Below are positions 3,289-54,427 of a stretch of 64,000 nt of DNA, one piece after another. The DNA is from an uncultured Gammaproteobacteria bacterium. Lineage in GTDB: Bacteria; Pseudomonadota; Gammaproteobacteria; Legionellales; Legionellaceae. Location of the stretch: NCBI GenBank assembly GCA_963803545.1, contig CAWDMX010000001.1, forward strand, positions 753,013 to 817,012, read 5' to 3'. The notes under the pieces are model-generated. The model did not search any database, had not been told where the DNA came from, and was given only the letters and a program-made list of their open reading frames with translations. Every line of letters starts with the position of its first letter. The first letter of the stretch is position 1. A program made the position numbers and the translations under genes.

Positions 3289-3838
3289 AATGCTCCTAAT
3301 GATTAGATTGGTAAAAATTATAGTTTCTTTACTACACAGCAAGCTTTAACTGTATTCTCCTTACCGATTATTTGGATATAGTCGTTATTAAAGCTCATCA
3401 ATACAAGCTCAATAATGATTGAAATATAATAACATTTTAAAATAACTACACAATTGCTAAAAATTAAAAATACTGTTTACAATACGTATGCAATCCTAAT
3501 GATGTAACTCTGATCGGCTAAGAGGGTATATTGGGGTTAAATTACAGAAACGGGGCAAAATCGTTTTTGCTCATTAATCCAATTTCAAAACTTTACAGCA
3601 GTATACGGACTCAATCTATTTAAGCAGCTAGCGAGAGCTGATAAATCAAGGTGTTAATTGTTTCCTCAGGGTATTTATCCAAATCAACCTGATTTTCAGA
3701 CTTTGAAAAATACTTGCTTGACCAAATTGATCGTCGAACGAGCGCCATGATATCCGAAAAGGTAAGCTCGCCTTTTTTGGTTTTGGCGCAGAAAATTGCT
3801 AAATTTGCTAGAATTCCCGCATTTTTCAGGAGTTGTGG

Positions 3839-4539
3839 ATGGTCAGCTTCAAATGGAAACATTTTAAACAGGACATCATATTGATGCTGGTGAGATGCTA
3901 CCTTGCTTATTCATTGAGCTATCGTGATGTTGAAGAACTGGCTTTGGAGCGTTGATTAAAAGTAGATCACTCCACTATTAATCGTTGGGTAATTGAATAT
4001 TCACCACAATTAGAGGCAATTTTTCGTAAACGTTACAAGCGTCCCACAGGAAATTCCTTGCGCATGGATGAAACCTATACAAAGGTAAAAGGTCAGTGGG
4101 TTTACCTGTATCGTGCTGTTGATAAAGAAGGCAATACGGTTGATTTCATGCTGTCAGAAAAGCGTGACGAGCCAGCAGCACGGGCATTTTTTGAGAAAGC
4201 GATTGGCTCAAGCGGTATTCCGGACAAGGTAACCATGGATAAAAGTGGTGCCAACAAAGCCGGCATTGACACTATCAACCTGCATTTAGCATTGCTGTTT
4301 ATGCTGGATGGAGTTTTTACCCAAATCACAGTTCGCTAGAGAAAATACCTCAATAATACTGTGGAACAAGACCATCGGTTTGTGAAAAAATCACCAAGCC
4401 TATGAAAGGATTTAAAGCGTTTCATTCTGCAGAAGCAACCTTAGCAGGGATTGAGCTGCATCACATGCTGAGGAAAGGACAACATAACCAGTCCTCCAAT
4501 CAAACTTTTTTTGAGCAGTTTTATGGACTTGCAGCATAA
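3839..4539 (+). pseudogene. IS6 family transposase pseudogene (degenerate second copy, element about 3779-4592)
   Basis: It translates as MVSFKWKHFKQ...YRDVEELALER, then an in-frame TGA at 3953-3955. The frame continues (RMDETYTKVKGQWVYLYRAVD) to a TAG at 4337-4339 that replaces a Gln, followed by a 1-nt deletion in the KKITKP region. Degenerate IRs lie at 3779-3795 and 4576-4592. Confidence 0.8.
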
Positions 4540-4761
4540 ACTAGCCCAGAATTCCTGTGTTTTACGCCTGTAATATTTTATGCGACAAAACCAGAATAAT
4601 TATTGCTATCGTGTAGTTGTTGCGTATAAAATAGACGCAAAACAAAAGAAGACGTTAAAAATATTGCTTGATTGCCAAAAAAAAGCGCATTATCCTGCGC
4701 TTGAAATTGATCCCGCACTATAATGTTTAAGCTCTATTTAATTGCATCGGTGGAGATTTGT

Positions 4762-5130
4762 ATGCATTTTTTTAAAAAAATTCTAATTCCTGCTGGATTG
4801 TGTTTTTCTTTATTAGGATTCGCCTCTAGTTGCCCTAACCCCAATGAGTTCCCTTTAAGTGCAGGGTTACCACCCTACCCATGGCATAAAAGCCGTTTAA
4901 CTCGGATTATATACGTGGATTCGCATACACGATTTTCAAAAGCGTCTATTATTGCAGCGGATGTCTACGGTAGTGGAGTGGTGTGCAGTTACGGTCAAGA
5001 ATCGGGTTCCAGATTCTCTATCGTTAAAATGGATGCCATTTGCGTTTCATCGCTTGATAAAAACGTTTGGAAAAAGAAATCGATCAGTTATGAATGCACC
5101 GCCTCGCTTGAAGAATGTTCCTTTTCCTAA
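4762..5130 (+). CDS. small secreted cysteine-containing protein, same family as 2872-3288
   Basis: A GGAG sits upstream of the ATG at 4762. The signal peptide is MHFFKKILIPAGLCFSLLGFA. The mature part starts with SCP, has a mid VCSY and ends with YEC...ECSFS. Confidence 0.6.
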   Translation: MHFFKKILIPAGLCFSLLGFASSCPNPNEFPLSAGLPPYPWHKSRLTRIIYVDSHTRFSKASIIAADVYGSGVVCSYGQESGSRFSIVKMDAICVSSLDKNVWKKKSISYECTASLEECSFS

Positions 5131-5387
5131 AGATAGATAGCGGGTATTGCAAACATGCCTACTCATTGCGCGCTTAGGTTCTGGCACAAAAAGCTGTCTA
5201 ATGGGGTCGTCTTCCTATTTTTTTGAACGAGGAACAATGGTCCGTTTTAAGTGGCGGTATTATAAGCATCAGATGGCATCGACATTATTGCGGGACAGAA
5301 TTTGAGTTGCGTGAGAACCAAAGTCTGTACGCTGAATACGCAGATGGGCATGCCAAATTTATAATTAAGATTTTGGCATCTGAATTA

Positions 5388-5753
5388 TTATTTATACAAT
5401 AATTCACTAAGCAATCTGATTAAAGTTGAGCGAGATTTGACGGCGAAAATCATTTCCGTAGGGATAATCAAGTCATTACGAGAAACCGTTAAGTGCTGTA
5501 AATTCACATTAAAGCATTTCTCTTTTATTAAGGCTTGAGCTTGATATTTTAATATATCAGACGTTTTATTAGCCGGCCCTTTACCTGTAATTTGATACAA
5601 AACAAAATGAACTCCAACTTGATGATATTGCTGGAGATAGCGTTCAATGGTTCGTCGTGACTTATTAAGAAGTTTGGCTGCGTTAATAATTGTAATTTTA
5701 CCTTGAGATAGAGATGGAGCACACAAAGACGAATGCAATGCTATTACGCACAA
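5388..5753 (-). pseudogene. N-terminal HTH fragment of a transposase (ISNCY/IS1202-like)
   Basis: The HTH-like segment ITIINAAKLLNKSRRTIERYLQQYHQVG is followed by GKGPANK, with no catalytic domain after it. An IS6-like FKWR fragment also lies at about 5236-5300. Confidence 0.35.
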
Positions 5754-6067
5754 ACAAGACTTGTAAATATTTGCGTAAAAAAATTGAGTGAGCTGTACCC
5801 ATAACTTTTAGAAAAAAGTACACCTATGATTGGATGTGTTGCAAAAACATCTAGACGAACGGATGAATTATTATAATAATGCGCGACTGAGTTAAGGAAG
5901 GATGCGCTGGAGTTGAACCTCCCAATATACTTTAATTGGTGATAAGTCGAATTGGGCGCAGAACGGTTTCCCTTGATAATGGCGTTACTATACCGGATTG
6001 ACACCTAACCATCACTACACCTATGCGGTGTCGCTCAATCGTACCTACGTGGCTTAAGGATAAAACC

Positions 6068-7624
6068 ATGCAACGAAAACAACTGCATTTTTTCAACAAG
6101 GTACTACGGACGGCTTTTTCCTTTTCCCTGATGCTCACAGGCGCTCAGGCAGCCAAACCTTTATGGACGTTTGTACCGCAAACACCAACCGAGATTACCG
6201 TAGATAAAGACAGCCGTTCCCAAGTTATATACACGGTGCAAAGTCAGTCCTCGAGAGCTAAAATACTGGTGATGAAACCTCTTGTTGGAATAAGTCAAAG
6301 CGCATCCTGTCTGCTTCCTGCTAAAGGAATGTGCACATTGACGCTCAATGTGAATGGTGCTAGCTTGCAAGGAAATGTCGTGGGTGGTCCTGTATTGTGC
6401 CAACAAGGTAATGAGTTGCAGTGTTACCAACCGAGCTCAACCAATATTTTACGTATTCGGTTAATAGAGCAGCCGTCCGTTCAGCAATTTACAGTCATAC
6501 CATCAGCGGATGCAAATGGCTCCATTGCCCCCACAACAACACAGATGGTCAATCTCGGCAGCAGCTTGACGTTTTCGGCAACGCCCAATACTGGCTACGG
6601 AGTTAATCAATGGTTGCTTGATGGAAATGTGGTGCAAAACGGCGGTACCACTTTTCAGTTGAACAATATCCAGGCTAATCATGCCGTAGAGGTACGCTTT
6701 GGCCAGACAACGTTGTCTCCTCTTACACAAATCCTGGCTTTGTCCATCAAAAGTTCTGGAGCTGACCCGGCACTAGCGGGCAATGCACGCACTATCCGCA
6801 TAGAGAATACAGGCTCAATACAAGCAAGCAACGTACAAGTGAGCATCCCGGCCTTTCCTACTGGAACGTCGATTACCGGTAATTCTTGTACGGGCATACT
6901 GAATGCCGGAGACACCTGCGACATTACTATCACTCCGGGCGCTAATGCTAGTTTGGATGCGGGAGCGAGTGTCTGTACTACAACACCTGGAACTGTTCCT
7001 GAGCCAACTGTTGTTACCATAACTTCAGATAATGCGCCATCTACAGACGTTAGCGTTTTAGTATTGGGATACGGTTGTATTTATCAAGGTGGTTTTTTGT
7101 TTTCGGTGGATGATACGACCATTAGTACCAGTAGTATCGGTGGGAAAGTGGCGGCGGTTATGGACCAGTCAACAGGGATCCCATGGGGACCTATCGTAGC
7201 CGTTGGAGGTATTAGTGAAACGTCTATGGCCGGTTTGGGTTCCTGTGATGGCAAAAATAATGGAGCATGCAATACAGGTCGCATTATTGCTGCGAACTTA
7301 GCGTCGCCCGTTGCCGCTCAGCTCTGCGATAACTTGGTCAGCGGTGGTTATAACGACTGGTTTATGCCGGCGACGTGTGAGTTGGGACGATTTACAGGTT
7401 TAGGTACGGATGCTGGTTGCGGCACTTCCAATCCCAATTTGTATACTACATTGCATATAAATAGCTTAGGCCAGTTTAGCAATCAATTCTATTGGAGTTC
7501 TACCGAGTTTTCAGGCGGCCCGTCGTTTTTCGTTTGGATCCAGCGTTTCGTTGATGGCAGCCAGAATGGTGCTAATAAGTCGGTCGCTCTTTCGGTTCGG
7601 TGCGTTCGGGCTTTTAGCCCTTAA
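6068..7624 (+). CDS. secreted protein with InlB B-repeat-like module and C-terminal DUF1566 (Lcl C-terminal-like) domain
   Basis: An AAGGA precedes the ATG at 6068 and the signal peptide ends in AQAAKP. The repeat is FTVIPSADANGSIAP...TPNTGYGVNQWLLDGN (about 6488-6700). The C terminus reads GGYNDWFMPATCEL...YWSSTE...SVRCVR (about 7310-7624). Confidence 0.7.
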   Translation: MQRKQLHFFNKVLRTAFSFSLMLTGAQAAKPLWTFVPQTPTEITVDKDSRSQVIYTVQSQSSRAKILVMKPLVGISQSASCLLPAKGMCTLTLNVNGASLQGNVVGGPVLCQQGNELQCYQPSSTNILRIRLIEQPSVQQFTVIPSADANGSIAPTTTQMVNLGSSLTFSATPNTGYGVNQWLLDGNVVQNGGTTFQLNNIQANHAVEVRFGQTTLSPLTQILALSIKSSGADPALAGNARTIRIENTGSIQASNVQVSIPAFPTGTSITGNSCTGILNAGDTCDITITPGANASLDAGASVCTTTPGTVPEPTVVTITSDNAPSTDVSVLVLGYGCIYQGGFLFSVDDTTISTSSIGGKVAAVMDQSTGIPWGPIVAVGGISETSMAGLGSCDGKNNGACNTGRIIAANLASPVAAQLCDNLVSGGYNDWFMPATCELGRFTGLGTDAGCGTSNPNLYTTLHINSLGQFSNQFYWSSTEFSGGPSFFVWIQRFVDGSQNGANKSVALSVRCVRAFSP

Positions 7625-41768: not shown

Positions 41769-42152
41769 AATTATTATTCAGAAATAGTTGATTACCCTAC
41801 AACCACGAGAGGCTACACACAACAGTGGGAGATATATCCCCTGTGGCCTATGAAAAAGAATAATAAAAGTGCCCAAATTTGGTTGACCAGAACAATATTG
41901 ATTGTTACCGACAGTTGCTCTCAAAATAAATGCGTCCTAGGAATGCAAAACAAAGGTGGGGCAGCTAAAACCTAGTAATGACGGGGCGTCCCACTTATCC
42001 CCTATGTCCCGCCCATTTTTTATAAGCGTGCAACACGCATTAAATAAAATTAAATAAACATAATCTACGATGATTTCCGCAACGCAATATACTATAATTT
42101 ATGCAACATGATATACTATGATTTCAACAATAGTATTAATAGAGAAAAGATA

Positions 42153-43667
42153 ATGAAACCATCAGAAAAACTGGCTCAATCCTTAGAAATTTTACGAGAA
42201 ATACAGCAAAAAGGTAAATATACCATTCAATCAAAAAATATCAGCAGAACACATCGCGAACGATTGGTAGAAAATGGCTTTTTGGAAGAAGCTATCAAAG
42301 GTTGGTACATACCTGTCAAACCAGATGAGCAAAAAGGAGATAGTACCCCATGGTATACTACCTTTTGGAATTTTTGTGCCACCTATTTGAATGAACGATT
42401 TGATGATAATTGGTGTCTTTCTCCTGAACAATCCCTACTTATCCATGCAGAAAACTGGACTGTCCCTCAACAGTTGATAGTGCGAAGTCCAAGTGGAACA
42501 AACCGTAATATGGAATTGCCACATAACACTTCAATGTTTCAAGTACGCTATAAAATGCCAACACCAGAAGATATCGAGGTAAAACAAGATTTAAGATTAT
42601 ATGCACTGGCACCGGCTCTGATCTATTGCTCTCCCAAATTCTTCTCACAATATCCAACTGAGGCCAGGGCTATTTTATCTATGTTTAATAACGCCTCTGA
42701 CATACTTCATTATCTATTGGATGAAGGGCGTTCATGGATAGCTGGAAGACTAAGTGGTGCGTTTAGGAATATTGGAAAAACACAAATAGCAGGTGATATT
42801 AAAATGACCATGGAAAGTGCTGGGTATCAAGTACGCGAGGAAGACCCTTTCTGTACAGTTGCACCCATAGATTTCTCAAAGGGTAATAAACCACCTTACC
42901 GTAGTCGTTTAGAAGTGATGTGGCATGAAATGCGACAGCCTATCATCGATTATTTCCCAAAACCAAAGCACAAGATTACTAATACTGAAAAATATATAGA
43001 ATCCGTTGAAGAAGGCTACACCAATGATGCTTATCATTCTTTGTCGATTGAAGGCTATCAGGTCAGCGCGGAACTCATTGAAAAAGTACGCTCCGGCCAA
43101 TGGGGTCCTGATGCATTTGAAGATGATAGGAGTCAAGGAAATGCACTAGCTGCAAGAGGATATTGGCAAGCTTTCCAAGCCGTTGAAAAAAGTCTGGTTA
43201 AAGTACTGGAAGGAGAAAATCCGGGAAATATCATACAAAAAGATCATGGCAGCTGGTATCGAGAACTTTTTCAGCCCAGTGTTGTAGCCGGCCTATTAAA
43301 ACCAACCGATCTTGCTGGATATAGAAGAAACCCCGTATACATTCGACAATCAAAACATATTCCGGCCAGAGCTCAAATTGTCAGTGATTTAATGGAAGAA
43401 TTTTTTCAGTTAGTAAGTCAAGAGAATGATCCTGCTGTTCGAATAGTACTTGGTCATTTCTTTTTTGTATATATCCACCCATACCCTGATGGAAATGGTC
43501 GAATTGGGCGCTTTCTAATGAATGTGATGATGGCTGCTGGTCATTATCCTTGGACTATTATTCCAGTTGATAGACGAAATGAATATATGGAAGCTTTAGA
43601 GCAAGCCAGTGTTCAACAGAATATTATTCCATTCTGTAATTTTGTGGCTAGTTGCGTGGATGGTTGA
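42153..43667 (+). CDS. Fic-domain protein (class II, internal inhibitory motif)
   Basis: The Fic motif HPYPDGNGRIGR lies at 43476-43511. An upstream SLSIEG fits the (S/T)xxxE(G/N) inhibitory helix motif. The start is taken at MKPSEKL. Confidence 0.85.
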   Translation: MKPSEKLAQSLEILREIQQKGKYTIQSKNISRTHRERLVENGFLEEAIKGWYIPVKPDEQKGDSTPWYTTFWNFCATYLNERFDDNWCLSPEQSLLIHAENWTVPQQLIVRSPSGTNRNMELPHNTSMFQVRYKMPTPEDIEVKQDLRLYALAPALIYCSPKFFSQYPTEARAILSMFNNASDILHYLLDEGRSWIAGRLSGAFRNIGKTQIAGDIKMTMESAGYQVREEDPFCTVAPIDFSKGNKPPYRSRLEVMWHEMRQPIIDYFPKPKHKITNTEKYIESVEEGYTNDAYHSLSIEGYQVSAELIEKVRSGQWGPDAFEDDRSQGNALAARGYWQAFQAVEKSLVKVLEGENPGNIIQKDHGSWYRELFQPSVVAGLLKPTDLAGYRRNPVYIRQSKHIPARAQIVSDLMEEFFQLVSQENDPAVRIVLGHFFFVYIHPYPDGNGRIGRFLMNVMMAAGHYPWTIIPVDRRNEYMEALEQASVQQNIIPFCNFVASCVDG

Positions 43668-44272: not shown

Positions 44273-44384
44273 TGTAAATCAGCATGCAAAAATGACCCCT
44301 TTAGAGGGGAAATCAGCGTCGAAAATTGACCCCCTAAATAATTGTTAAACTAACCGTTGGGATCACTCAACGGAGATGAGGGGG

Positions 44385-45896
44385 ATGTTAATTGTGGAAA
44401 CGATCGCAAAAATACGCACACGTTATCATGTTCAGAAACAAGGCATTAAGCAAATAAGCCGAGAGCTGAATTTATCGAGGAATACAGTAAGAAAGGTACT
44501 CCGTGAAGGACAAACTGCACATGTCTACAAACCAAGGCAAGTGGTCGCCCCAAGGCTTGAGGATTATAAGGAGCAATTGCAGTCCTGGCTTGAATTGGAC
44601 AATCAATTACCAAAGAAACAGAGATGCAGTGCCATGCGCTTGCACCAGCGTTTGCGGGAGTTGGGATATTCAGGCGCTTATGACAGCGTACAGCGCTATG
44701 TAAAGCAATGGATGCTGGATGATGGCAAGGTGGGCAAGGCATTTATTCCACTTTACTTTTCGCCAGGGGAAGCTTATCAGTTTGACTGGAGCGAAGAAGT
44801 TGTAGAGCTTGGTGGCGTTGCTCAGAAAATAAAGGTCGCACAGTTTCGTTTGTGTTACAGCCGCATGCTATTTGTGGCAGCGTTTCCGCGAGAAACACAG
44901 GAAATGCTGTTTGCAGCGCACGCACAGGCTTTTTCATTTTTTGGTGGAATCCCGCGTCGCGGAATTTATGACAACATGAAAACGGCAGTTGACGTGGTTT
45001 TTACTGGCAAGGAAAGAATGTTCAACAACCGATTTATCCAGATGTTAAGCCATTATCTGGTAGAACCCACAGCCTGTAGTCCCGCTGCTGGCTGGGAAAA
45101 GGGGCAAGTTGAAAATCAGGTTGGCAATGTTCGCGATTGGGTTTTTGTGCCCCGGCTAAAATTTAAGGACTTCAACGAACTGAACCGGCACCTGACGGAG
45201 CGCTGCCTGGAGATTTCCAAAACGCGTGCACATCCTGAAGCGAAAGACACTCGTATTTTTGAGATTTTTGAGCAGGAAGGACAGGTGCTTCGACAGATGG
45301 ATGCGCCATTTGACGGCTATATGGAGAAGAGCTGCCGGGTTAGCAGCACCTGTCTTGTTAACTTTGACCGAAACCGCTATAGCGTTGAATGTGCCTATGC
45401 ATACCAACCGGTCAGCGTGCGGGCTTATTCTGACAAAATTATAGTGAATTCAAAAGGCCGTGTCATCGCCGAACATACACGTCATTTTGGTCGGGATAAA
45501 ACCATTTATAATCCCTTGCATTACCTGCCACTGCTTGAGCAAAAGCCTGGAGCTATTCGCAATGGTGCGCCATTCCACGAATGGGTATTGCCCGATGGTC
45601 TTAAGAAAGTCAGGGAAATCCTGATGAAGGACAAAGATGGCGACAAAGCCGTTGTGTCAATACTTCTTGCGATTTCCACCCACGGTCTTGAAGCCGTTGA
45701 TGCTGCCTGCAAAACAGCCATTTCAGAGGCGCTCATAGGAGCTGATTATATTTTGAATCATTTAAACCGCCAGAAAGACAGGCCAACACCTTCTGAAATA
45801 ACGACGCCAGACTGGTTAAAACTGGCCAAAGAACCGATGCCCGATATGGTTCGTTACAATCAGTTGCTCAGAGGGGTTCGCCATGCCATACACTGA
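44385..45896 (+). CDS. istA: IS21 family transposase IstA
   Basis: Motifs are [39 protein letters not shown] and YQFDWSEE...[10 protein letters not shown]. Confidence 0.9.
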
Positions 45897-46611
45897 ACTG
45901 TTGTTAATGTTACGCAACCTGAAGCTTTATGGGATGGAAGAAGCGTTTACAGAAGCAAGCGAGCAACCAGGATTCAGTCAGCTGACCAAAGAGTCTCTTT
46001 TGTCAAATCTGGTTCGTGCTGAAATTGCCGACAGGCAGGCTCGCTCCATTAACTATCAAATGGGTACTGCCAAATTCCCTGTATACCGTGATTTGGACCG
46101 TTTTGATTTTGCATCGTCTGAAGTCAATGAAGAACAAATAAGAACGCTGCATGAAGGCAGTTTTATTCCTGCTAATCGTAATGTTATTTTTGTGGGCGGT
46201 ACTGGCAGTGGAAAAACTCATCTGGCGATTGCCATTGCCAGTCAGGCCATTAAAAACAGGTACAAGGCGAGATTTTTCAACGTAGTTGACCTTGTTAACA
46301 GACTCGAGGCCGAAAAGTTGGCCGGCAATGCAGGAAAACTCGCCGAGCGTTTGAAAATGGTTGATGTGGTTGTCCTTGATGAGCTGGGTTACCTGCCCTT
46401 CTCTCAGGCTGGAGGCGCATTGTTATTCCATCTTATCAGCAAACTGTATGAGAAAGTTTCACTCATTATTACCACCAACCTCAGTTTCAGTGAATGGGCA
46501 CAGGTCTTTGTTGACAAAAAAATGACAACCGCCATGCTCGACAGAGTTACACATCATTGCGACATCATTGAAACCGGAAACGAAAGTTACCGCTTTAAAA
46601 CAAGAAATTAA
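45883..46611 (+). CDS. istB: IS21 helper ATPase IstB
   Basis: The Walker A is [11 protein letters not shown] and the Walker B is VVVLDELGY. The gene overlaps the istA stop. Confidence 0.9.
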
Positions 46612-46932
46612 TTGCTTCTATATTTTACATTGTGACTATCACAGGGGGGGGGCAATTTTCGACGCTGACAGGGGGTCAATTTTGGATGCTGATTGACAAT
46701 TATTACTCTCCTCGAATTTAAATATTTAGTAAATACATGCAATTAAGAAATAGTGTCTTTTTTTTTAGCAAAAATGAGATTGACTTTTCTTTTGTCCTTT
46801 AGTAGCTTGCCCTCTGTAGAGTCTTTCTAAGGCTATCTACTAAAAAGAGGTTTATTGCAGGCTATTTTTAGGCCTCGATAAATTTTGACCACCTAGCTAG
46901 CTTTGTTAGTTGGGTTTTACTGTGGATTAATA

Positions 46933-47854
46933 TAGTGAATTAAAATTTAAACGATCCCCTGAAAAGCATGATCAATGGCCTGAGCTAATGTATCAAAATT
47001 AGCAATTTCATTCTTAATTTTCTTTTTTAAATTTGCCCAGCATTTTTCAATAGGATTTAAATCTGGTGAATAAGGGGGACGAAAGATCAAATCACAACCT
47101 GCGCCATTGATAATAGCAGCCGTTTCTGGGGATTTATGAAAAGCAGCATTATCCATTATAATGGTCTTACCACTTCCAATTTCAGGTAAGAGGAAATTAC
47201 TGAGCCAGAAGTTGAATAAAACACCATCCATAGTGCCTTGATAGCAAATTGGGGCAACCAGAGTTTTATGGATTAACCCCGCTACAAAACTTTCTCTAGC
47301 GAAGCGTTTACCAGACCTCTCACCAATAACTGTTTGCCCTCTCTCACTCCATGCGTGCTCCCTGGATACAAAGCTATCTATGCCTGACTCATCAACGTAT
47401 ACGATACTTTCAGGGTTCAAATGCTCTATGATTTCAATATAATGTTCGCGTTTATTAGGGCACCGCTCCTTGTAGAGCGAAGTCTTTTTTTTCGAGTTAT
47501 TTTTAACCGCTTCAATGCTGCATGAATAGCAGGGGCGGTAACATTAAAGTGAGAGGCTATCTCATTTAAAAACGAATCAGGATGCTCTTTAATAAAGGCT
47601 TTTAACTTATCTGAATCTATTTTGTATGGGTTGTGTGGACGACCAGCACCTACCAGTTGTCCTGTTTGATGTCTCAATCTCTTCCATTGCTTAATTGTCG
47701 TTGTACCAACTGAAAATAATGTACTCGTAGATTCGATCGTAGCTCCTGAATCTATATGGAAAAGTACTTTTTCCCTAAAATCTAATGAATAAGTCATAGT
47801 CTAAAAGCACTAATTATAACAAACATTTAAGACTTTTTAAATTTTAATTAACTA
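46933..47854 (-). mobile_element. Tc1/IS630-like element, copy B (apparently functional)
   Basis: IRs are TAGTGAATTAAAATTT (46933-46948) and the complement of AAATTTTAATTAACTA (47839-47854). A TA duplication is present on both sides. Confidence 0.85.
46947..47797 (-). CDS. IS630-like transposase encoded in two frames joined at an A AAA AAG site
   Basis: ORF1 is 47426-47797 (HTH; LKRLKITRKK). ORF2 is 46947-47420 (DDE; DNAAFHKS...PPYSPDLNPIEKCW). The ORF2 frame is open back through the A8 run at 47485-47492, so a -1 shift gives one product. Confidence 0.75.
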
Positions 47855-47869
47855 TAAAGAAGTTATGTT

Positions 47870-47968
47870 ATGAAAACAACTACAAAAACTAAAACCCTAA
47901 CTGTTTCTAAAATTTCTGCTGCAATTAAAATTGCCTTAAAAGCTTCTTTAATTACAGCTGTTCCTTAG
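47870..47968 (+). CDS. candidate precursor peptide (32 aa)
   Basis: The peptide is MKTTTKTKTLTVSKISAAIKIALKASLITAVP. A purine-rich AAAGAAG lies 7 nt upstream. It is the first ORF of the co-oriented cluster and is followed by a long hairpin. There is no homology evidence. Confidence 0.4.
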   Translation: MKTTTKTKTLTVSKISAAIKIALKASLITAVP

Positions 47969-47977
47969 TCTTTTTTT

Positions 47978-48029
47978 CAGGCGTAATATCACTCAAATTT
48001 ATTTTTTATTTGAGTAATATTATTGCCTG
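47978..48029 (+). promoter_or_regulatory. long imperfect hairpin between the small ORF and the E1-like gene
   Basis: The left arm CAGGCGTAATATCACTCAAAT (47978-47998) pairs with ATTTGAGTAATATTATTGCCTG (48008-48029), giving about 19 pairs with two small bulges. No U-tract follows. Confidence 0.5.
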
Positions 48030-48054
48030 AATTAATCGTAATAATGGTTTTTGT

Positions 48055-49119
48055 ATGACACAGATAAAATTGAATGAAAATTTGTATTTGCAACCTCATG
48101 AAAATGGAATAATTATTCATCTCCCTGATGATCAATCACTTAAAATTGAAGAAAAAGAATTTTTTATCGATTTACTTTATGAGATTAAAAAATCTGGAAT
48201 ACAGGGTAAAGAAGAAATTTATAAACAACTTTATTTTAAACATGATGTATCTGAAGACGAATTTAATGAGGTCTTTCAGATTTTAATTGATAATAATATT
48301 GTAAAATCTAAAACCGAATTCGCGCATACACTGTCGGATAAAGAATTAATAAAATTTGATAGACAGATCAAAAGTTTTGCTACTTTAAAAGGCAATAATA
48401 TTGATGATGCCATCCATTTTCAGGAAAAAATAAAGAACGCTCATGTGGGGATTTTAGGTGTTGGTGGTGTTGGTTCTTACGTAGCATATGGATTGGCTTC
48501 CATGGGTATTGGAAAACTAACACTTATTGATCATGATCACATTGAATTAAGCAATACCGCCAGACAAATGCTTTACAATGAAGATGATATTGGCAAACAA
48601 AAACTTGATGTTGCTGAGAAAAAGCTAAAACTAGTTAACCCAGATGCTGAGATTACTACAGTTAATCAAAGAGTAACTCGCCCCCAAGATTTAGAACTTT
48701 ATTTAGGCAGCCTTGATATTTTAATTTTGTGTGCAGATATACCAAGAGGCAAAATTGTATATGTCGTCGATGAAGCCTGCCAAAATAAACAGTGTCCATT
48801 TATTTTTGGACTACCTTCTTTTAACCAAATAACTTGTGGTCCGCTAATCATCCCTAACAAGACAAGAAGTTATAAAGAAATTTTCCCTAATCAATCTGAA
48901 ACACATGAAACAAATATTTCAGACTCAGAAAAAGAGAAAACTGATTTAATCAATTCTGGTTTAGTTGCAACCATTATTGATCCATACAATGCTATTGCTG
49001 GGAAACTTGTTGCTCTGGAAGTAATAAAATTTTTAACAAATTTTTTACCTTGCCAGCTAATTGATCGCGTGTTTAATTTCGATACCAATACATTAAATTC
49101 CTGTATTACTGAGGTGTAG
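48055..49119 (+). CDS. ThiF/MccB/PaaA-type E1-like adenylating enzyme with N-terminal ~110-aa extension
   Basis: Motifs are HVGILGVGGVGSYVAYGLASMGIGKLTLIDHDHIELSNTARQ and DILILCADIP. The N-terminal part is helix-rich (FFIDLLYEIKKSG...FQILIDNNIV). No CxxC zinc motifs were seen. Confidence 0.85.
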   Translation: MTQIKLNENLYLQPHENGIIIHLPDDQSLKIEEKEFFIDLLYEIKKSGIQGKEEIYKQLYFKHDVSEDEFNEVFQILIDNNIVKSKTEFAHTLSDKELIKFDRQIKSFATLKGNNIDDAIHFQEKIKNAHVGILGVGGVGSYVAYGLASMGIGKLTLIDHDHIELSNTARQMLYNEDDIGKQKLDVAEKKLKLVNPDAEITTVNQRVTRPQDLELYLGSLDILILCADIPRGKIVYVVDEACQNKQCPFIFGLPSFNQITCGPLIIPNKTRSYKEIFPNQSETHETNISDSEKEKTDLINSGLVATIIDPYNAIAGKLVALEVIKFLTNFLPCQLIDRVFNFDTNTLNSCITEV

Positions 49120-49120
49120 T

Positions 49121-50158
49121 TTGTCTTTTTCTTCTATTAAATTAACTGAACTTGTCAAACAAACAGGGAGTACACCTGTTAATTTATTTAATTTACTCTC
49201 TCTAGTGGAGCATAAAACGAATGTTCCACTGAGTACTGATTGGCAGATTTTTAAAAAAAATGACGACACTATTCTCTTGGAAAAAATATTTAAAGAGTAT
49301 GGCCCTAATAGTAACTTACAGAATGTATTTGACTATTTATTAGAGTGTGAATCTACATACTCAAACCTTCTATCCAGTTATTTAACACAATATCGAGATC
49401 AGAAGAAAAGTAAGAACGATCTTTTTCACAAGTATGGGTATAATTTAAAAAATTTAAAACAAGAGCCATGTCTTCATAGAGAGCAAGAGCAAGAACTTAT
49501 AAAAATTTGTCTTAAAAGAAATTATAAAAATAATATAATGCTCATCGGTGAATCTGGCGTAGGAAAAACCTTTCTTATTGCATCGATTGCTCATATTCTA
49601 AACTTAGACATTTACTACATAGACATTAGCAGCATATTATCTGGCTCTAAATATCGCGGCGAATTTGAAAAGAAATTTCACGATATTCTTAATGAGGCTT
49701 TAACTCACAGGAAAATTTTATTTTTTGATGAAGCTCATACGATACTAAATACCGGAAATTCTGACGGAGGAATATCTGGTGCTGATATATTAAAGCCTTA
49801 TCTTATGCTTGCAGACTTTCAAATGATAGGAGCAACGACAATCGATGAAGCAGCTATATTTGTTAACGATAAAGCTTTTGAAAGACGTTTTAATTTTATT
49901 CACCTTGAAGAGCTAACTGTAGAAAATACAAAAGAGATCATAAAAAGTAAGCATCAACAAATCAGTGATTGGGATCCTCTCCTTATAGATAAAATATTTG
50001 TATATTTAGGTAACACATTCAAGAGCAGAAACTACCCAGATAAAGCACTTGATTTTTTTGATTTTTATTTTTCTGGTGAAAAATTATCTTCGTTTAAAAT
50101 TGATGAAATGGAAAAAGTATTCAGCCTTTTTAATCGCATGAATAATATGTCAGTATAA
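49121..50158 (+). CDS. Clp-type AAA+ protein with N-domain-like region and D1 module only
   Basis: Motifs are NIMLIGESGVGKTF (Walker A at 49547-49570), ILFFDEAHTIL, GATTIDE and FERRFNFIHLEE, matching ClpA/B D1. The TTG start is 1 nt after the upstream stop. There is no D2 module. Confidence 0.8.
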   Translation: MSFSSIKLTELVKQTGSTPVNLFNLLSLVEHKTNVPLSTDWQIFKKNDDTILLEKIFKEYGPNSNLQNVFDYLLECESTYSNLLSSYLTQYRDQKKSKNDLFHKYGYNLKNLKQEPCLHREQEQELIKICLKRNYKNNIMLIGESGVGKTFLIASIAHILNLDIYYIDISSILSGSKYRGEFEKKFHDILNEALTHRKILFFDEAHTILNTGNSDGGISGADILKPYLMLADFQMIGATTIDEAAIFVNDKAFERRFNFIHLEELTVENTKEIIKSKHQQISDWDPLLIDKIFVYLGNTFKSRNYPDKALDFFDFYFSGEKLSSFKIDEMEKVFSLFNRMNNMSV

Positions 50159-50170
50159 GTTGGTTTATAA

Positions 50171-51394
50171 ATGCAATTATTCTACAGACTATTAATTTAT
50201 ACTATATTATTTTCAAGCATCAGAATGCTCGTGGGAGGCTACTCTTCTTTATATTTAACCAATCACGGGTTATCTATTGCGGATATCTCCTTTTTAAAAG
50301 CGTTTCAAGGAATAGTAATTGTACTTATTCAAGTTCCGGTAGGGGTGATCATTGATAGATGCAATAATAGGTTTCCTTTCATACTGATTTCAATTTTTCT
50401 TGCAGCCATTTGGATGTTTTTAACTGCCATAGGTAATACAACGTCTATTTTCTTTGCAGCAGAATTTTTTAATGGTTTGTCTTTGGCAATTTTTAATGCA
50501 GTGATGTTGCCTATCTTAGTTGAAACTTATTCTTATGAGACAGGAAAGGATGATTATAACTACACATTAGGCAAGTTTTTCAAATATCAAAACTTATTAA
50601 TGGTAGTGTCTGTACTTTTAGGCAGTGTTTTTGTAACGGTGGAGTCCAGATACGTCTGGTTTGTTGCCTCTTCTATTTTAACAATAATGGGGGTATTTTC
50701 TCTTTTAGCTAATGATTTAAAGAAATTTAATATCACTTCATCAAAAAAACCACTACTAAATAAAGCGAGGTTACACTTCAAGAATTTATTTAATGTATTG
50801 AAAGTTGAAAACGCCATTATTTTATTTATTGCTAATATCTCGCTGGTTACTGTGTTTCAAATTTTAGCTCAATTTTGGCAGGTAATCATTTATGATTATT
50901 TAGGTGAACATACTTCTAATGCAATAGTATATGGACTTATATTTGCCGTTATTTTAGTATTTCAAGCACTAGGATCATTCTTTGCTGAAAAGAAAAACTC
51001 ACTAAAAATAAGCTTGTTTTTTATGGCTTTTTTCGTTGCTACTACATGCTATCTAATGGGATATAACGGAAATGAAATCTATAAAATAATCCCTATTATC
51101 CTGTTTCTTTTTTGTTTTATTTTATTTAAATATCCTTCAATTATTATAAGCGCATTACTGCATAAAAATATCAGCAATGACATTAGGGCAACTTTTGATT
51201 CACTAATTAGTACAATTTCAATGTTGGTATCAATCGGCACATTTTATATGATTGGAATTTTACTCAATAACTTTGGAAATAAAGTAATTATTTTATCTTT
51301 GACATTTTTAATGATGACAAGTTTTTTTAGCACATTTCTATACGTGATTAAAACAAGATATAGCCTAAGAACTAGTTTAGTAACGAGTTCTTAG
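50171..51394 (+). CDS. MFS transporter (about 12 TM)
   Basis: The protein is hydrophobic throughout, with a central loop KKFNITSSKKPLLNKARLHFKN separating two six-helix halves. Confidence 0.8.
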   Translation: MQLFYRLLIYTILFSSIRMLVGGYSSLYLTNHGLSIADISFLKAFQGIVIVLIQVPVGVIIDRCNNRFPFILISIFLAAIWMFLTAIGNTTSIFFAAEFFNGLSLAIFNAVMLPILVETYSYETGKDDYNYTLGKFFKYQNLLMVVSVLLGSVFVTVESRYVWFVASSILTIMGVFSLLANDLKKFNITSSKKPLLNKARLHFKNLFNVLKVENAIILFIANISLVTVFQILAQFWQVIIYDYLGEHTSNAIVYGLIFAVILVFQALGSFFAEKKNSLKISLFFMAFFVATTCYLMGYNGNEIYKIIPIILFLFCFILFKYPSIIISALLHKNISNDIRATFDSLISTISMLVSIGTFYMIGILLNNFGNKVIILSLTFLMMTSFFSTFLYVIKTRYSLRTSLVTSS

Positions 51395-52443
51395 ATAACC
51401 ATTCCTTCTAATAAACTAACTGTCTCTTCCATTGGATTAATCTCGGCTAAACAGCTATAAGGCATTATCCACATTGGATCAGAGTGTCCAAAGTCCATAT
51501 TAACTACTACAGAAACTTGGAGTAATTGATATTCTTCAAATACGTCTAAAATGGCTTTTCCATAGTCTTTAAATTGCGGGACTAAGATATGCTGACCACC
51601 TGGCTTACTAAATAAAATGCCCCCTATCTTAGCCAGTATTCCTTGAGCCGCTAAGTTTCGTAAGAAACGTTTTAAAAATAATGGGGCTACACCTTCTTCT
51701 GAAGTTTCTAAGAAAAGAATACAGCCAGCCCAAACATCTAATGAAGGCCAAATTTCGGTGGCATTGATAAACTGTAATACTTCAACACAGCCGCCTAATA
51801 AACGTCCTTGAACTATTTTGTCAGTACATCCAATAAATTCCCATTTCATTTCGGGCTCAAGCTTTCTTTGGATCACTTGATTGGAAGGTTTTTGCCAATC
51901 TAAATATTCCTTAGTCCATCCCTCACTTGCTTTGGGAATGGGACCTATTTTATCCGTTGAAAAAAAACTCTGTTTTATCGCACTTACTGTGTACTCATGC
52001 ATTGCTGCATTTTCTGCGAAACCTGTCATTACCGAAGTACCATAAAAGCTTGCTATGCCCGCTTTTAAGCACATAAAATGCAAAACAGTACTGTCTGAAT
52101 AACCTAAAACTATTTTTGGGTTTTTACGAATGATTTCAAAGTCAATGTAAGGTAATAACCTTATGGCATCCTCTCCGCCAATCGTTGAGAAAATTCCTTT
52201 GATAGATGGGTCTAAAAACGCTTGCATTAAATCTTCTGCTCTAGCCTTGGGATTTCGGTATACCCAATCAGCATCTTTTAATGCATGGGGCATTTCAACC
52301 ACTTCCAATTCAAAAACAGATTCGATTCGTTGTTTACCTGCTTCATAACGATAAGGAAAAGCACCAGGGCCGCCCCATGAAGCACTGATCACTGCAATTT
52401 TATCTCCAGGATTCAATTTTTGAGGGAGAATTAATTGCTTCAT
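51391..52443 (-). CDS. S66 peptidase (LD-carboxypeptidase LdcA / MccF family)
   Basis: Motifs are LNPGDKIAVISASWG, IVLGYSDSTVLH (nucleophile Ser motif) and DFGHSDPMWIMP (His motif). The stop overlaps the MFS stop by 4 nt. Confidence 0.85.
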   Translation of the reverse strand: MKQLILPQKLNPGDKIAVISASWGGPGAFPYRYEAGKQRIESVFELEVVEMPHALKDADWVYRNPKARAEDLMQAFLDPSIKGIFSTIGGEDAIRLLPYIDFEIIRKNPKIVLGYSDSTVLHFMCLKAGIASFYGTSVMTGFAENAAMHEYTVSAIKQSFFSTDKIGPIPKASEGWTKEYLDWQKPSNQVIQRKLEPEMKWEFIGCTDKIVQGRLLGGCVEVLQFINATEIWPSLDVWAGCILFLETSEEGVAPLFLKRFLRNLAAQGILAKIGGILFSKPGGQHILVPQFKDYGKAILDVFEEYQLLQVSVVVNMDFGHSDPMWIMPYSCLAEINPMEETVSLLEGMVI

Positions 52444-52687: not shown

Positions 52688-53885
52688 GGTAATCGTCCCT
52701 AAAAATAATTGATGCCAAAAGTAGAATTTTCTCGTACCCTTTACGCAGGAGATTCTGCATGAAAAAATCAAAATTTAGTGACAGTCAAATTATGTCGATC
52801 ATCAAGCAAAGTGAAGCATGCGTACCTGTTCCAGAACTTTGTCGTGAACATGGCATGAGTTCAGCAACGTTTTATAAATGGCGTGCAAAATATGGTGGCC
52901 TGGACTTGCCGATGATGACCCGACTAAAAGAGCTCGAGTCTGAAAATGCCCGTTTGAAGAAGATGTACGCTGAAGAGCGCCTAAAATCTGAGATTCTTCG
53001 CGAGGTGCTTGAAAAAAAGTAGTTAAGCCATCCAGTCGAAAGCAGCTTGCACAGAAAGCCGTGCAGGAAAAATTTATCTCCGTACGGATGGCCTGTTGTT
53101 TATTTAGCATTAGTGAAACTTGCTATCGTTACCAATTGAAGCTGAATGATGAAAATGCTCATATTGCAGACTGGTTGTTGCGTTTGACTAAAAATAATCG
53201 CAATTGGGGTTTTGGCCTTTGTTTTTTATATTTGCGTAACGTTAAAGGTTACAAATGGAACCATAAGCGTGTTTATCGTATTTATAGAGAGCTCGAGCTG
53301 AATTTAAGAATCAAACCCAAAAAGCGGTTAATTAGGGAAAAGCCAGAGGCGCTAACGGTTCCTCAAGCAATAAACGAATGCTGGTCAATGGATTTTATGC
53401 ATGATCAGTTACAAAACGGGCGTAGTTATCGTTTATTTAACGTGATTGATGACTTCAATCGAGAAGGCCTTACCATTGAAGCTGACTTCTCTTTGCCTGC
53501 TGAGCGTGTGATTAGGGCGCTTGATCAGGTTATTGAGTGGCGTGGTAAGCCTTTTCAGATACGTTGTGATAATGGACCTGAATATATCAGTCACTTGCTT
53601 ACACAATGGGCTGAAAAACACAAAATAACGCTATTGTTTATTCAGCCAGGCAACCCACAACAAAATGCCTATGTTGAGCGTTATAACAGAACCGTACGAT
53701 ATGATTGGTTAAACCAGTATTTATTTAGTACGATCGAGGAAGTTCAGAATATGGCCACAAAATGGTTGTGGTCTTATAACAACGAACGGCCTAACATGGC
53801 AATTGGAGGTATACCGCCCAGACAAAAACTGAAATTAGTAGCTTAGTTTCTACTTTTAGCGTCAGTTAAAAATGGGGGGATTACC
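52688..53885 (+). mobile_element. IS3-family insertion sequence, intact
   Basis: IRs of about 40 bp are GGTAATCGTCCCTAAAAATAATTGATGCCAAAAGTAGAA versus the complement of TTCTACTTTTAGCGTCAGTTAAAAATGGGGGGATTACC. A GATC direct repeat lies at 52684-52687 and 53886-53889. Confidence 0.85.
52759..53846 (+). CDS. IS3 transposase OrfA/OrfAB
   Basis: OrfA is 52759-53022 (HTH plus leucine zipper). The slippery A AAA AAG lies at 53013-53019. The -1 frame continues [23 protein letters not shown] into OrfB (53061-53846; DFMHD...DNGPEY...[10 protein letters not shown]). Confidence 0.9.
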
Positions 53886-54351
53886 GATCGTTTCTAGTTT
53901 TACCATACTCTCTTATAAAGTCAGATAAGACGCTTTGCTGTAAAGGGTGGTTAAAATATGTTTCTGAGGTATATAAGAACATATAGGCTAAGCTTAAAAG
54001 GGCATACAACATAAGTATTGTAATAAAGTAATAAGCTCCATTAGATAAAAAAATTCTTTCATTAATCTGTTGGGCTAAAGTTTTTTTAGTTGAGATTGCC
54101 AGATTAACTTCAGATCGAACGTGCAATGTTTGATGCAAGTAATCTTTAGAAAGTTCCTTGGTAGGCCACATACTATCAACCCATTTAGTGAAAAGTACAC
54201 CAATAACACTTACTAAGATACTTTGAAAAAGGGGCGACATGATGAGAATATTTCCTTACAAATGCTAAAGCGTCTTACTCCATCTTTCTACATTGCTTCT
54301 ACATGAGAATTTCAGAACTTCGGTGTTATTCGCCACAACCCTTATGTGGTG

Positions 54352-54427
54352 TGGCTCCCCGGGACGGGCTCGAACCGCCGACCTAATGATTAACAGTCAT
54401 CCGCTCTACCGACTGAGCTACCGGGGA
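54352..54427 (-). tRNA. tRNA-Asn (GTT)
   Basis: The reverse complement folds as a cloverleaf: acceptor TCCCCGG/CCGGGGA, D arm TAGCTCAGTCGGTAGAGC, anticodon loop CTGTTAA, T arm GGTTCGAGCCC, and an encoded CCA. Confidence 0.95.

What the first reader, a model, noticed from the sequence alone, without database searches (positions are those of the whole stretch)
49121..50158. Stand-alone Clp N-domain + D1 AAA+ module translationally coupled to the E1-like enzyme
The sequence matches the first nucleotide-binding domain of ClpA/ClpB/ClpC (GESGVGKT, ILFFDEAH, GATTIDE, FERRF). It is preceded by ~120 aa with a Clp_N-like flavour (VNLFNLLSLVEH). It stops after D1, so there is no D2 and no ClpP-binding loop that I can see. 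Its TTG start lies 1 nt after the E1 stop. A half-Clp unfoldase inside a peptide-modification operon is not part of the known microcin C or pantocin pathways. It could deliver or remodel the substrate, or act on a target.
Basis: partly seen in the sequence, partly recalled or inferred. Interest (0 to 1): 0.65.

Follow-up and report, generated by a model that had tools for sequence, protein, structure and literature searches.

The report
Half-Clp motor in peptide-antibiotic operon
This gene encodes a rare "half" Clp-type ATP motor that, in every genome examined, sits directly after a microcin-C-type peptide-activating enzyme and next to an exporter, so it is probably a core and still unstudied part of a small peptide-antibiotic factory.

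Summary
The ORF at 49121-50158 is real. It encodes a complete Clp/Hsp100 first ATPase module (D1). Walker A and B, the KYR pore loop, sensor 1 and the double arginine finger are all intact. There is no D2, no ClpP-docking loop and no D2 remnant downstream. The first ~110 residues are not a Clp N-domain. They form a six-helix domain with no sequence or fold match.

The gene is not a stray fragment. In 23 of 23 loci with upstream sequence, a D1-only homologue lies directly after an MccB-like E1 gene. The hosts are Legionella, Streptococcus suis, other Lactobacillales and unknown bacteria. The genes are usually translationally coupled, and an MFS exporter gene lies alongside. Upstream is a 23-36 aa precursor gene followed by a hairpin. 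Starting from the E1 side, only the two closest of 80 metagenomic relatives have the ATPase.

The family is rare: 9 of 185,579 species genomes.

The window's precursor ends in Pro, not the Asn that microcin C chemistry needs. An MccF-like peptidase is also present.

Reviews mention "ClpA homologs" in some mcc-like clusters and guess self-immunity. I found no experiments.

Best reading: a ring-shaped peptide-threading partner of the E1 and exporter. The mechanism is inferred only.

The parts
47870..47968 (+). Precursor peptide gene, 32 aa: MKTTTKTKTLTVSKISAAIKIALKASLITAVP. It has no acidic residue, so the C-terminal Pro carries the only carboxylate.
   Evidence: A small ORF lies at the same place in every cassette examined, with a shared K-x-K-T-x-T leader motif and a variable last residue: Pro, Ala, Arg, Asn or possibly Ile. 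No NCBIfam family matches it.
47976..48031 (+). Long stem-loop between the precursor gene and the E1 gene, probably an attenuator or transcript-stabilising hairpin.
   Evidence: Minimum free energy -25 kcal/mol, z = -6.6 against shuffles. A strong hairpin of different sequence sits at the same place in 11 of 12 loci and in L018, L022 and L103. In the Firmicute loci it is followed by a U-rich tract.
48055..49119 (+). MccB-like E1/ThiF adenylyltransferase, 354 aa, with an N-terminal extension of about 110 aa that partly aligns with the N-terminal region of MccB and PaaA.
   Evidence: Pfam ThiF 6.5e-48. The best solved relatives are MccB at 2.8e-29 (query 65-331) and PaaA at 4.1e-23. The CxxC that MccB has at GKTGCYEC is absent here (NKTRSYKE) and across the clade.
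49111..49123 (+). Translational-coupling junction: GAGGTG, then TAG (E1 stop), then T, then TTG (ATPase start).
   Evidence: Read directly from the sequence. The identical arrangement occurs in L001, L003, L011, L012 and L016. Other clades use an ATG start, and in most of them the ATPase gene overlaps the E1 3' end according to the gene calls.
49121..49450 (+). Family-specific N-terminal domain of the ATPase (residues 1-110), predicted as six helices. It is not Clp_N.
   Evidence: AF2 models. No Pfam hit. hhalign against Clp_N gives probability 0.1%. Foldseek best hit is E=3.9.
49457..50158 (+). Clp/Hsp100 D1 AAA+ module (residues 113-345). Walker A 49547-49570; pore loop KYR 49649-49657; Walker B 49715-49732; sensor 1 GATT 49829-49840; arginine fingers RR 49883-49888; RNYPDK 50027-50044.
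   Evidence: All the listed motif residues are invariant in 16 family members.
50171..51394 (+). MFS exporter, 407 aa, in the position that MccC occupies in microcin C clusters.
   Evidence: Pfam MFS_1 7.9e-17. An MFS gene lies directly downstream of the ATPase in the other loci with sequence there, often overlapping it. In L022 it is divergent upstream.
51391..52443 (-). MccF-like S66 serine peptidase, 350 aa, convergent with the MFS gene. Probable self-immunity enzyme.
   Evidence: Pfam Peptidase_S66 and S66C. The best solved relatives are 'MccC family protein Ba3275' at 1.4e-100 and MccF at 5e-30 to 9e-25. The only muramoyltetrapeptide carboxypeptidase (LdcA-type) entry in the list scores 4.9e-13. 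It is present in the Legionella-type loci even at 36% identity (L003), and an S66 gene lies about 3 kb away in L022.

Best explanation
**What it is (shown).** This is a stand-alone Clp/Hsp100 D1 AAA+ ATPase fused to a novel helical N-domain. It belongs to a rare family that is inherited as one unit with a specific clade of MccB-like E1 enzymes, an MFS exporter and a 23-36 aa precursor peptide. The order is precursor, hairpin, E1, ATPase, MFS. The Legionella type adds an MccF-like peptidase.

**How it most likely works (inferred).**
1. The ATPase assembles into a ring. Its arginine fingers would act on the neighbouring subunit, as in other Clp D1 rings.
2. It hydrolyses ATP and grips the Lys/Thr-rich precursor with its KYR pore loops.
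3. It acts as a core partner of the E1 and the exporter, not as an optional immunity factor. It would keep the long peptide extended and present it to the E1, or strip the C-terminally modified product from the E1's leader-binding domain. It would then pass the product to the MFS pump.
4. The N-domain would dock it to the E1 or to the leader.

**The E1 (inferred).** It must activate the C-terminal carboxylate, the only carboxylate in the window's peptide. The last residue is Pro here and Ala, Arg, Asn or possibly Ile elsewhere. The chemistry that follows adenylation therefore cannot be the Asn-succinimide route of microcin C in this clade. It remains unknown.
For: **Intact catalytic and substrate-gripping residues.** Walker A, Walker B, sensor 1, the RR fingers and KYR are invariant in 16 members. 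KYR or EYR is also kept in the more distant P0139, P0140, P0141, P0143 and P0150.

**Strict linkage.**
- E1 lies directly upstream in 23 of 23 loci that have upstream sequence.
- An MFS gene is adjacent wherever flanking sequence exists.
- From the E1 side, only the two best of 80 metagenomic E1 relatives (E 1e-58 and 8e-54) carry the ATPase. None of the 78 with E >= 1e-36 does.

**Translational coupling.** The ATPase is coupled to the E1, and in many loci to the MFS gene as well.

**Co-divergence.** E1 and ATPase identities correlate across 78 locus pairs, Pearson r = 0.91.

**Contrast with immunity genes.** Known immunity-type genes vary between loci. The S66 peptidase is found only in the Legionella type and near L022. 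An acetyltransferase-family gene is found in L005/L006 and in L102. The ATPase is universal.

**Precursor length.** Precursors here are 23-36 aa, against 7 aa for most microcin C precursors (PMC6495379 abstract). A long peptide fits a need for handling.
Against: - Ring formation, peptide binding and contact with the E1 or MFS are all inferred from homology and gene order.
- Linked genes co-diverge whatever their function, so r = 0.91 is weak evidence.
- No characterised RiPP pathway found in the literature searches uses an AAA+ unfoldase. MccB, PaaA, EnfB and IndF work without one.
- The most divergent member (L022) has HLR in place of the pore-loop KYR.
- The only published opinion is self-immunity (PMC8323819).
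Confidence: 0.45

Rival explanations
1. Self-immunity factor. The ATPase protects the producer from its own product or from processed intermediates. It might do so by extracting or unfolding an inhibited target, or by helping to clear toxic peptide. This is the guess made in reviews.
For: PMC8323819 lists 'ClpA homologs' among possible self-immunity genes of mcc-like clusters, and PMC12250964 repeats this. The cassette also carries other immunity-type genes, such as the MccF-like S66 peptidase, so immunity functions do cluster here.
Against: The reviews suggest hydrolysis of isoasparaginyl-nucleotides, which is not an AAA+ activity. Immunity genes in these clusters are variable, whereas the ATPase is universal in the clade and translationally coupled to the E1. 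An MFS pump, and in Legionella an S66 peptidase, already cover immunity.
Confidence: 0.2
2. Maturation helper. The D1 ring feeds the modified 23-36 aa precursor to a housekeeping protease that trims the leader, by analogy with the TldD/E processing reported for the long Yersinia microcin C-like precursor.
For: The precursors are long. No dedicated leader peptidase is encoded in the cassettes. Processing of a long precursor inside producing cells is indicated by the summary in PMC12250964, and TldD/E is named in the title of the paper it cites; that title is quoted from my own knowledge.
Against: The protein has no IGF/IGL-type ClpP-docking loop and no D2. No protease gene co-occurs. Unstructured peptides of about 30 aa do not normally need unfolding before cleavage.
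Confidence: 0.12
3. Target-mimic decoy. The product attacks ClpA, ClpB or ClpC, and the half-Clp acts as a sponge or resistant copy, as resistance genes in Clp-targeting natural-product clusters do.
For: Self-resistance genes related to the Clp target are reported for Clp-targeting natural products (titles and abstracts, for example PMC12607617 and PMC13243586).
Against: A decoy does not need an intact Walker B, arginine fingers and pore loop, yet all are invariant. The N-domain, which several ClpC1-targeting peptides bind (my own knowledge), is unrelated to Clp_N here. A D1-only protein cannot replace ClpA or ClpC function.
Confidence: 0.05
4. Decayed fragment of a full-length clpA/clpB, or a gene linked to the E1 by chance.
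For: None beyond its length being about half that of ClpA.
Against: There is no D2-like sequence in any frame downstream. The 334-358 aa architecture is conserved across Legionella, Lactobacillales and other bacteria. Linkage to the E1 is strict.
Confidence: 0.01
5. Ubiquitin-like conjugation or phage-defence module. The E1 would tag proteins with the peptide and the AAA+ would process the tagged proteins, in the style of Pup-Mpa, Cdc48 or Cap2.
For: The E1 gives weak hits to PADLOC E1-E2 models (1e-17) and the ATPase to IetA (1.8e-10). E1-plus-unfoldase pairings exist in ubiquitin and Pup biology (my own knowledge).
Against: The hits cover only the generic Rossmann and P-loop parts. No E2, JAB or beta-grasp gene is present. 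A conserved MFS exporter and a hairpin-followed precursor gene are bacteriocin/RiPP features. The closest solved E1s are MccB and PaaA.
Confidence: 0.04

Closest known systems
ClpA / ClpC / ClpB (class I Clp/Hsp100 unfoldases), D1 module
   Same: It is about 31-35% identical to D1 with the same fold. It has the same Walker A and B, KYR pore loop, GATT sensor 1, ERRF arginine fingers and R-x-x-PDKA-x-D small-subdomain motif.
   Different: It has no D2, no Clp_N, no middle domain and no ClpP-docking loop. Instead it has a novel six-helix N-domain and an aromatic C-terminal signature (YPDKALDFFDFYF). It is dedicated to a peptide-modification cassette rather than to general proteostasis.
Microcin C biosynthetic cluster (MccA-MccB-MccC, MccF immunity)
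   Same: The gene logic matches: a tiny precursor gene, a hairpin, an MccB-like E1, an MFS exporter and an MccF-like S66 peptidase. Distant cassettes of the same family (L018, L022) have Asn-terminated precursors.
   Different: The window's precursor is 32 aa and ends in Pro, with no Asn at all, so the Asn-succinimide route to the phosphoramidate cannot apply. The E1 lacks the CxxC seen in MccB. An AAA+ gene is inserted between the E1 and the exporter.
'mcc-like BGCs with ClpA homologs' noted by Travin, Severinov and Dubiley 2021 (PMC8323819, Fig. 6 cluster 8)
   Same: This is probably the same or a related cluster type: an MccB homologue with a ClpA-like gene.
   Different: It gets only a one-line mention with a self-immunity guess. 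That text does not describe the D1-only architecture, the strict linkage, the precursor family or the non-Asn termini. I could not see the figure or the supplementary table, so identity with this family is unverified.
Other ThiF-like RiPP enzymes: PaaA (pantocin A), GrcB, EnfB, IndF
   Same: They are E1-like enzymes fused to a leader-binding domain. They adenylate a peptide carboxylate, which a nucleophile then captures. Several act on non-Asn C-termini.
   Different: The precursor has no EEN motif and no conserved Cys or Trp nucleophile. None of those pathways has an AAA+ partner.
E1 plus unfoldase pairs (ubiquitin/Cdc48, Pup/Mpa). This is an analogy from my own knowledge.
   Same: A C-terminal-activating enzyme and a ring ATPase that grips an extended polypeptide operate in one pathway.
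   Different: No conjugation machinery is present, and the product is presumably exported through an MFS pump. The resemblance is functional only.

Membership tests
AAA+ ATPase, Clp/Hsp100 D1 type | Walker A GxxGxGKT, Walker B hhhhDE, sensor 1 and arginine finger(s) in a D1-like fold | tested here: met
   GESGVGKT, ILFFDE, GATT and FERRF are invariant in the family. TIGR ClpA gives 2.4e-39. Foldseek puts ClpC1, ClpA and ClpB D1 on top.
AAA+ ATPase, Clp/Hsp100 D1 type | Aromatic pore loop 1 (K-Y-R in D1) | tested here: met
   K177-Y178-R179 are present; Y178, R179 and G180 are invariant in 16 of 16 members. The exception is the distant L022 member, which has HLR.
ClpA/ClpB/ClpC orthologues (class I Clp/Hsp100) | Second AAA+ module (D2) | tested here: not met
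   The protein ends after the D1 small subdomain. Profile matches stop at ClpA residue 404. There is no D2 sequence downstream in any frame. Bit scores are far below the equivalog cut-offs, for example 135 against 993 for ClpA.
ClpA/ClpB/ClpC orthologues (class I Clp/Hsp100) | Clp_N double-repeat N-terminal domain (PF02861) | tested here: not met
   No Pfam hit. hhalign probability 0.1%. No Clp_N chain appears among the Foldseek hits.
ClpA/ClpC (ClpP-partner unfoldases) | IG[FL]-type ClpP-docking loop | tested here: not met
   No IGF, IGL or similar tripeptide occurs in the 345-aa sequence. In ClpA the loop lies in D2, which is absent here.
Microcin C-type peptide-nucleotide cluster | MccB-like E1 with an N-terminal peptide-binding domain | tested here: met
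   The best solved relatives are MccB at 2.8e-29, aligned from residue 65, and PaaA. Pfam ThiF 6.5e-48.
Microcin C-type peptide-nucleotide cluster | Precursor ending in Asn, the single-residue core needed for the succinimide and N-P bond | tested here: not met
   The window's peptide ends ...TAVP and contains no Asn. Legionella-type peptides end in Pro; others end in Ala or Arg. Only the distant L018 and L022 peptides end in Asn.
Microcin C-type peptide-nucleotide cluster | MFS exporter (MccC role) and, optionally, an MccF-type S66 immunity peptidase | tested here: met
   MFS_1 7.9e-17. The S66 protein is closest to MccF-family structures, not to the muramoyltetrapeptide carboxypeptidase (LdcA-type) entry.
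Microcin C-type peptide-nucleotide cluster | The product is a peptidyl-nucleotide with a phosphoramidate link | not testable with these tools
   This needs mass spectrometry of the product.
Pantocin A-type cluster | Precursor with a central Glu-Glu-Asn core, and a PaaB partner | tested here: not met
   The window's precursor has no Glu or Asn. No further biosynthetic gene is called between or beside the E1, ATPase and MFS genes.

The most novel reading that the evidence does not exclude
The E1, the D1-only ring and the MFS pump form one modify-thread-export machine. It would be the first ribosomal-peptide pathway that needs an AAA+ unfoldase. In this family the E1 would perform a new, non-succinimide C-terminal chemistry. 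The last residue (Pro, Ala, Arg or Asn) would be the variable warhead, possibly giving Trojan-horse mimics of different aminoacyl-adenylates aimed at different tRNA synthetases.
Probability: 0.3. Interest if true: 0.85.

Novelty: new variant of a known kind. Interest (0 to 1): 0.62.

Why it matters
- If the ATPase is a core partner, it adds a new type of component, a polypeptide-threading motor, to ribosomal peptide natural-product biosynthesis. It would also give a minimal single-ring Clp for mechanistic study.
- The non-Asn precursors, together with an MccB-like E1 and an MccF-like peptidase, point to unexplored C-terminal chemistry. They may also point to new antibiotic warheads.
- The cassette is mobile. 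It lies in a low-GC island flanked by IS elements beside a tRNA gene. It occurs in Legionella and in Streptococcus suis, so it may matter for competition among these bacteria.
- The system is small: four or five genes and one 32-aa peptide. It can be tested directly by heterologous expression.

Tried and rejected
1. **Clp_N homology of residues 1-110.** Pfam on 13 members, profile-profile comparison against a Clp_N alignment, and Foldseek of a separate AF2 model were all negative.
2. **Truncated clpA/clpB.** tblastn of nine full-length Clp proteins against the window finds only D1, plus P-loop noise in IstB.
3. **Canonical microcin C.** The precursor lacks a C-terminal Asn.
4. **Pantocin type.** There is no EEN motif.
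5. **Phage-defence or Cap2-like system.** PADLOC gives only generic Rossmann and P-loop hits.
6. **Named precursor family.** NCBIfam returns nothing for seven precursors.
7. **Literature for a functional study.** Five full-text searches and nine papers read yielded only two passing mentions of 'ClpA homologs'. The supplementary table of PMC8323819 is not held, so I could not identify its cluster 8.
8. **The 50-aa ORF between the E1 and the ATPase in the S. suis locus.** It has no Pfam match and no counterpart elsewhere. I treat it as doubtful.
9. **A precursor for the high-GC locus L101.** I could not identify one.
Full report
**Observation**

The ORF at 49121-50158 (+) encodes 345 aa. Residues 92-316 match the first nucleotide-binding module of ClpA, ClpB, TssH and ClpG/K and nothing beyond it. 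The TIGR02639 ClpA model gives 2.4e-39 over ClpA positions 158-404, and the bit scores lie far below the equivalog cut-offs. The best solved relatives are ClpC1, ClpB and ClpA D1, with E values from 1e-34 to 1e-30.

An AlphaFold2 model built on 16 family sequences has mean pLDDT 82. Its top Foldseek hits are D1 of ClpC1, ClpC, ClpA and ClpB.

The following motifs are invariant in all 16 aligned members:
- Walker A, GESGVGKT 143-150
- pore loop 1, K177-Y178-R179
- Walker B, ILFFDE 199-204
- sensor 1, GATT 237-240
- arginine-finger pair, R255-R256
- small-subdomain motif, R303-x-x-PDK

The E1 gene stops at TAG 49117-49119. The ATPase starts at TTG 49121, seven bases after a GAGGTG. The same GAGGTGTA(G/A)-N-TTG junction is conserved in five other Legionella-type loci.

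**What is not there**

- The protein ends about 30 residues after the PDKALDFFD helix.
- There is no D2, no IGF/IGL loop and no middle domain.
- tblastn of nine full-length Clp proteins against the window finds only D1 plus P-loop noise, with nothing D2-like in any frame downstream. The downstream DNA is filled by an MFS gene and an S66 peptidase gene.
- The N-terminal 110 residues are not a Clp N-domain. Pfam finds nothing in 13 members. Profile-profile comparison with a Clp_N alignment gives probability 0.1%. A separate AF2 model of six helices (pLDDT 73) has no Foldseek match better than E = 3.9.

**Surroundings**

The operon contains, in order:
- A 32-codon ORF at 47870-47968: MKTTTKTKTLTVSKISAAIKIALKASLITAVP.
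- A 22-bp-stem hairpin at 47976-48031, -25 kcal/mol, z = -6.6.
- An E1/ThiF-family gene at 48055-49119. Its best solved relatives are MccB (2.8e-29) and PaaA (4.1e-23).
- The ATPase gene.
- An MFS transporter gene at 50171-51394.
- A convergent S66 peptidase gene at 51391-52443 (-). It is closest to MccF-family structures (1.4e-100 to 9e-25). The only muramoyltetrapeptide carboxypeptidase entry in the list scores 4.9e-13.

The block has 30-31% GC, against 38-45% around it. It is flanked by IS21, IS630-type and IS3 elements and lies beside tRNA-Asn. It therefore looks like a mobile island.

The closest copies are in Legionella MAGs and L. drancourtii, with ATPase identities of 90-95%. The window is therefore probably from a Legionella.

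**Related loci**

- A protein search found about 18 clusters of 319-349 aa homologues before the hits merge into ordinary two-ring Clp proteins.
- An exhaustive profile search of 1.84 billion representatives lists about 13 full-length D1-only clusters in total (P0008, P0016, P0017, P0121, P0122, P0124, P0126, P0127, P0139-P0141, P0143, P0150).
- A DNA pattern for the family signature R-x-[YF]-PDK-x-[LI]-DF-x-D-[FL]-[YW] hit only 9 of 185,579 species genomes. Seven are Legionella or Legionellaceae and two are Lactobacillales.

I examined 26 loci, the window included. All 23 with upstream sequence have the E1 gene directly upstream of the ATPase. An MFS gene is adjacent wherever flanking sequence exists. 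It lies downstream, except in L022, where it is divergent upstream.

In non-Legionella clades, the gene calls show that the ATPase ATG usually overlaps the E1 3' end. The MFS start often overlaps the ATPase 3' end.

In the reciprocal test I used an E1 alignment to fetch 80 metagenomic E1 relatives. Only the two best (E 1e-58 and 8e-54) carry the ATPase next door. None of the 78 at E >= 1e-36 does.

E1 and ATPase identities co-vary across 78 locus pairs, r = 0.91.

**The precursor**

A small ORF with a shared K-x-K-T-x-T/I leader motif precedes the E1 in nearly every locus examined; none could be identified in L101, and L021 shows no obvious candidate. A strong hairpin of unrelated sequence follows it in 11 of 12 loci. 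The same holds in L018, L022 and L103. In the Firmicute loci the hairpin is followed by a U-rich tract.

The last residue varies:
- Pro in the Legionella type, L102 and L015.
- Ala in S. suis, L007 and L103.
- Arg in L005 and L009.
- Asn in the distant L018 and L022.
- Possibly Ile in L019 and L020, where the candidate ORF is less certain.

The window's peptide has no Asp, Glu, Asn or Gln. The only carboxylate the E1 can activate is therefore the C-terminal one. The Asn-dependent succinimide and phosphoramidate chemistry of MccB cannot apply. The E1 clade also lacks the CxxC seen in MccB at GKTGCYEC.

In Lactobacillales the cassette sits beside Rgg/RNPP-type regulators.

**Literature**

Travin, Severinov and Dubiley (PMC8323819) state that some mcc-like clusters encode [quoted passage not shown] as a self-immunity strategy. 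A 2025 review repeats this (PMC12250964).

None of the other sources mentions an AAA+ or Clp partner:
- ThiF-RiPP surveys and reviews (PMC11256085, PMC12150305, PMC12596934);
- the microcin C genome-mining papers (PMC4010828, PMC6495379);
- the streptococcal Rgg papers.

I found no functional study. The cluster type has therefore been glimpsed but not analysed.

**Mechanism**

*Shown:* the protein is a catalytically intact D1-type AAA+ module with a substrate-gripping pore loop. It is co-inherited and co-translated with an MccB-like E1 and an MFS pump, next to a conserved precursor gene.

*Inferred:*
- It forms a ring, hydrolyses ATP and threads or holds the 23-36 aa Lys/Thr-rich peptide.
- It acts as a core partner. 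It would present the peptide to the E1, or strip the modified product from the E1's leader-binding domain and pass it to the exporter.
- The novel N-domain would be the docking element.

I favour a core role (about 0.45) over self-immunity (about 0.2). The ATPase is universal and translationally coupled in this clade, whereas recognised immunity genes (S66 peptidase, acetyltransferase) come and go. The hydrolytic role suggested in the reviews is also not an AAA+ activity.

Lesser rivals are a feeder for a housekeeping leader protease (0.12), a Clp-target decoy (0.05), a ubiquitin-like or defence module (0.04) and a decayed fragment (0.01). The remaining weight is left unassigned.

The chemistry that follows adenylation of a C-terminal Pro, Ala or Arg is unknown. 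The MccF-like peptidase hints at an aminoacyl-nucleotide-like toxic moiety, but that is speculation.

**Verdict**

- This is a D1-only Clp variant dedicated to a distinct sub-family of microcin-C-like cassettes. It is a new variant of a known kind: mentioned in passing in the literature but uncharacterised.
- Interest is moderate to high, for three reasons. An AAA+ motor as a core RiPP component would be new. The non-Asn precursors imply new E1 chemistry. The five-gene system is easy to test.

Noticed in passing
window 44376-47797 and 52759-54427: The cassette is a 30-31% GC island in 38-45% GC surroundings. It is bracketed by IS21 (istA/istB 44376-46611), a split IS630-type transposase (46947-47797, - strand) and an IS3 element (52759-53846). 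It lies next to tRNA-Asn(gtt) at 54352-54427 (-).
   Followed up: partly
window 42108-43667 (+): A 519-aa Fic/DOC-family protein with the motif HPYPDGNGRIGR lies just upstream of the IS elements.
   Followed up: no
L013 (Legionella drancourtii LLAP12) 3508-7254: The E1 gene of the same cassette is split by an insertion of about 3.7 kb, so this copy is probably inactive.
   Followed up: no
L018 191-262; L022 4657-4728: Distant cassettes have 23-aa precursors ending in Asn (MIKIKTVTDIKLLDLVISKSFAN and MEITKVKTNIETDVLSETIALIN). Legionella-type precursors end in Pro and others in Ala or Arg. The last residue is the variable position of the family.
   Followed up: partly
L022 5966-6976: The most divergent D1-only member has HLR in place of the KYR pore loop and has lost the PDK motif. 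It still overlaps the E1 gene by 4 nt.
   Followed up: no
L005 and L006 8323-9205; L009 5488-6366: A 292-aa SAM-methyltransferase-like gene follows the MFS gene in two Firmicute cassette types. It is a possible tailoring enzyme.
   Followed up: no
L004 3664-4500; L009 883-1725; L103 3658-4563: The Lactobacillales cassettes sit next to Rgg/RNPP-type quorum-sensing regulators.
   Followed up: no
L004 5817-5969: In the S. suis locus a 50-aa ORF fills the 180-nt gap between the E1 and the ATPase. It has no Pfam match and no counterpart in the other loci.
   Followed up: partly
P0123 (749 aa): One high-scoring representative is a tandem of two D1-like modules after a long non-Clp N-terminus. Its context was not examined.
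   Followed up: no
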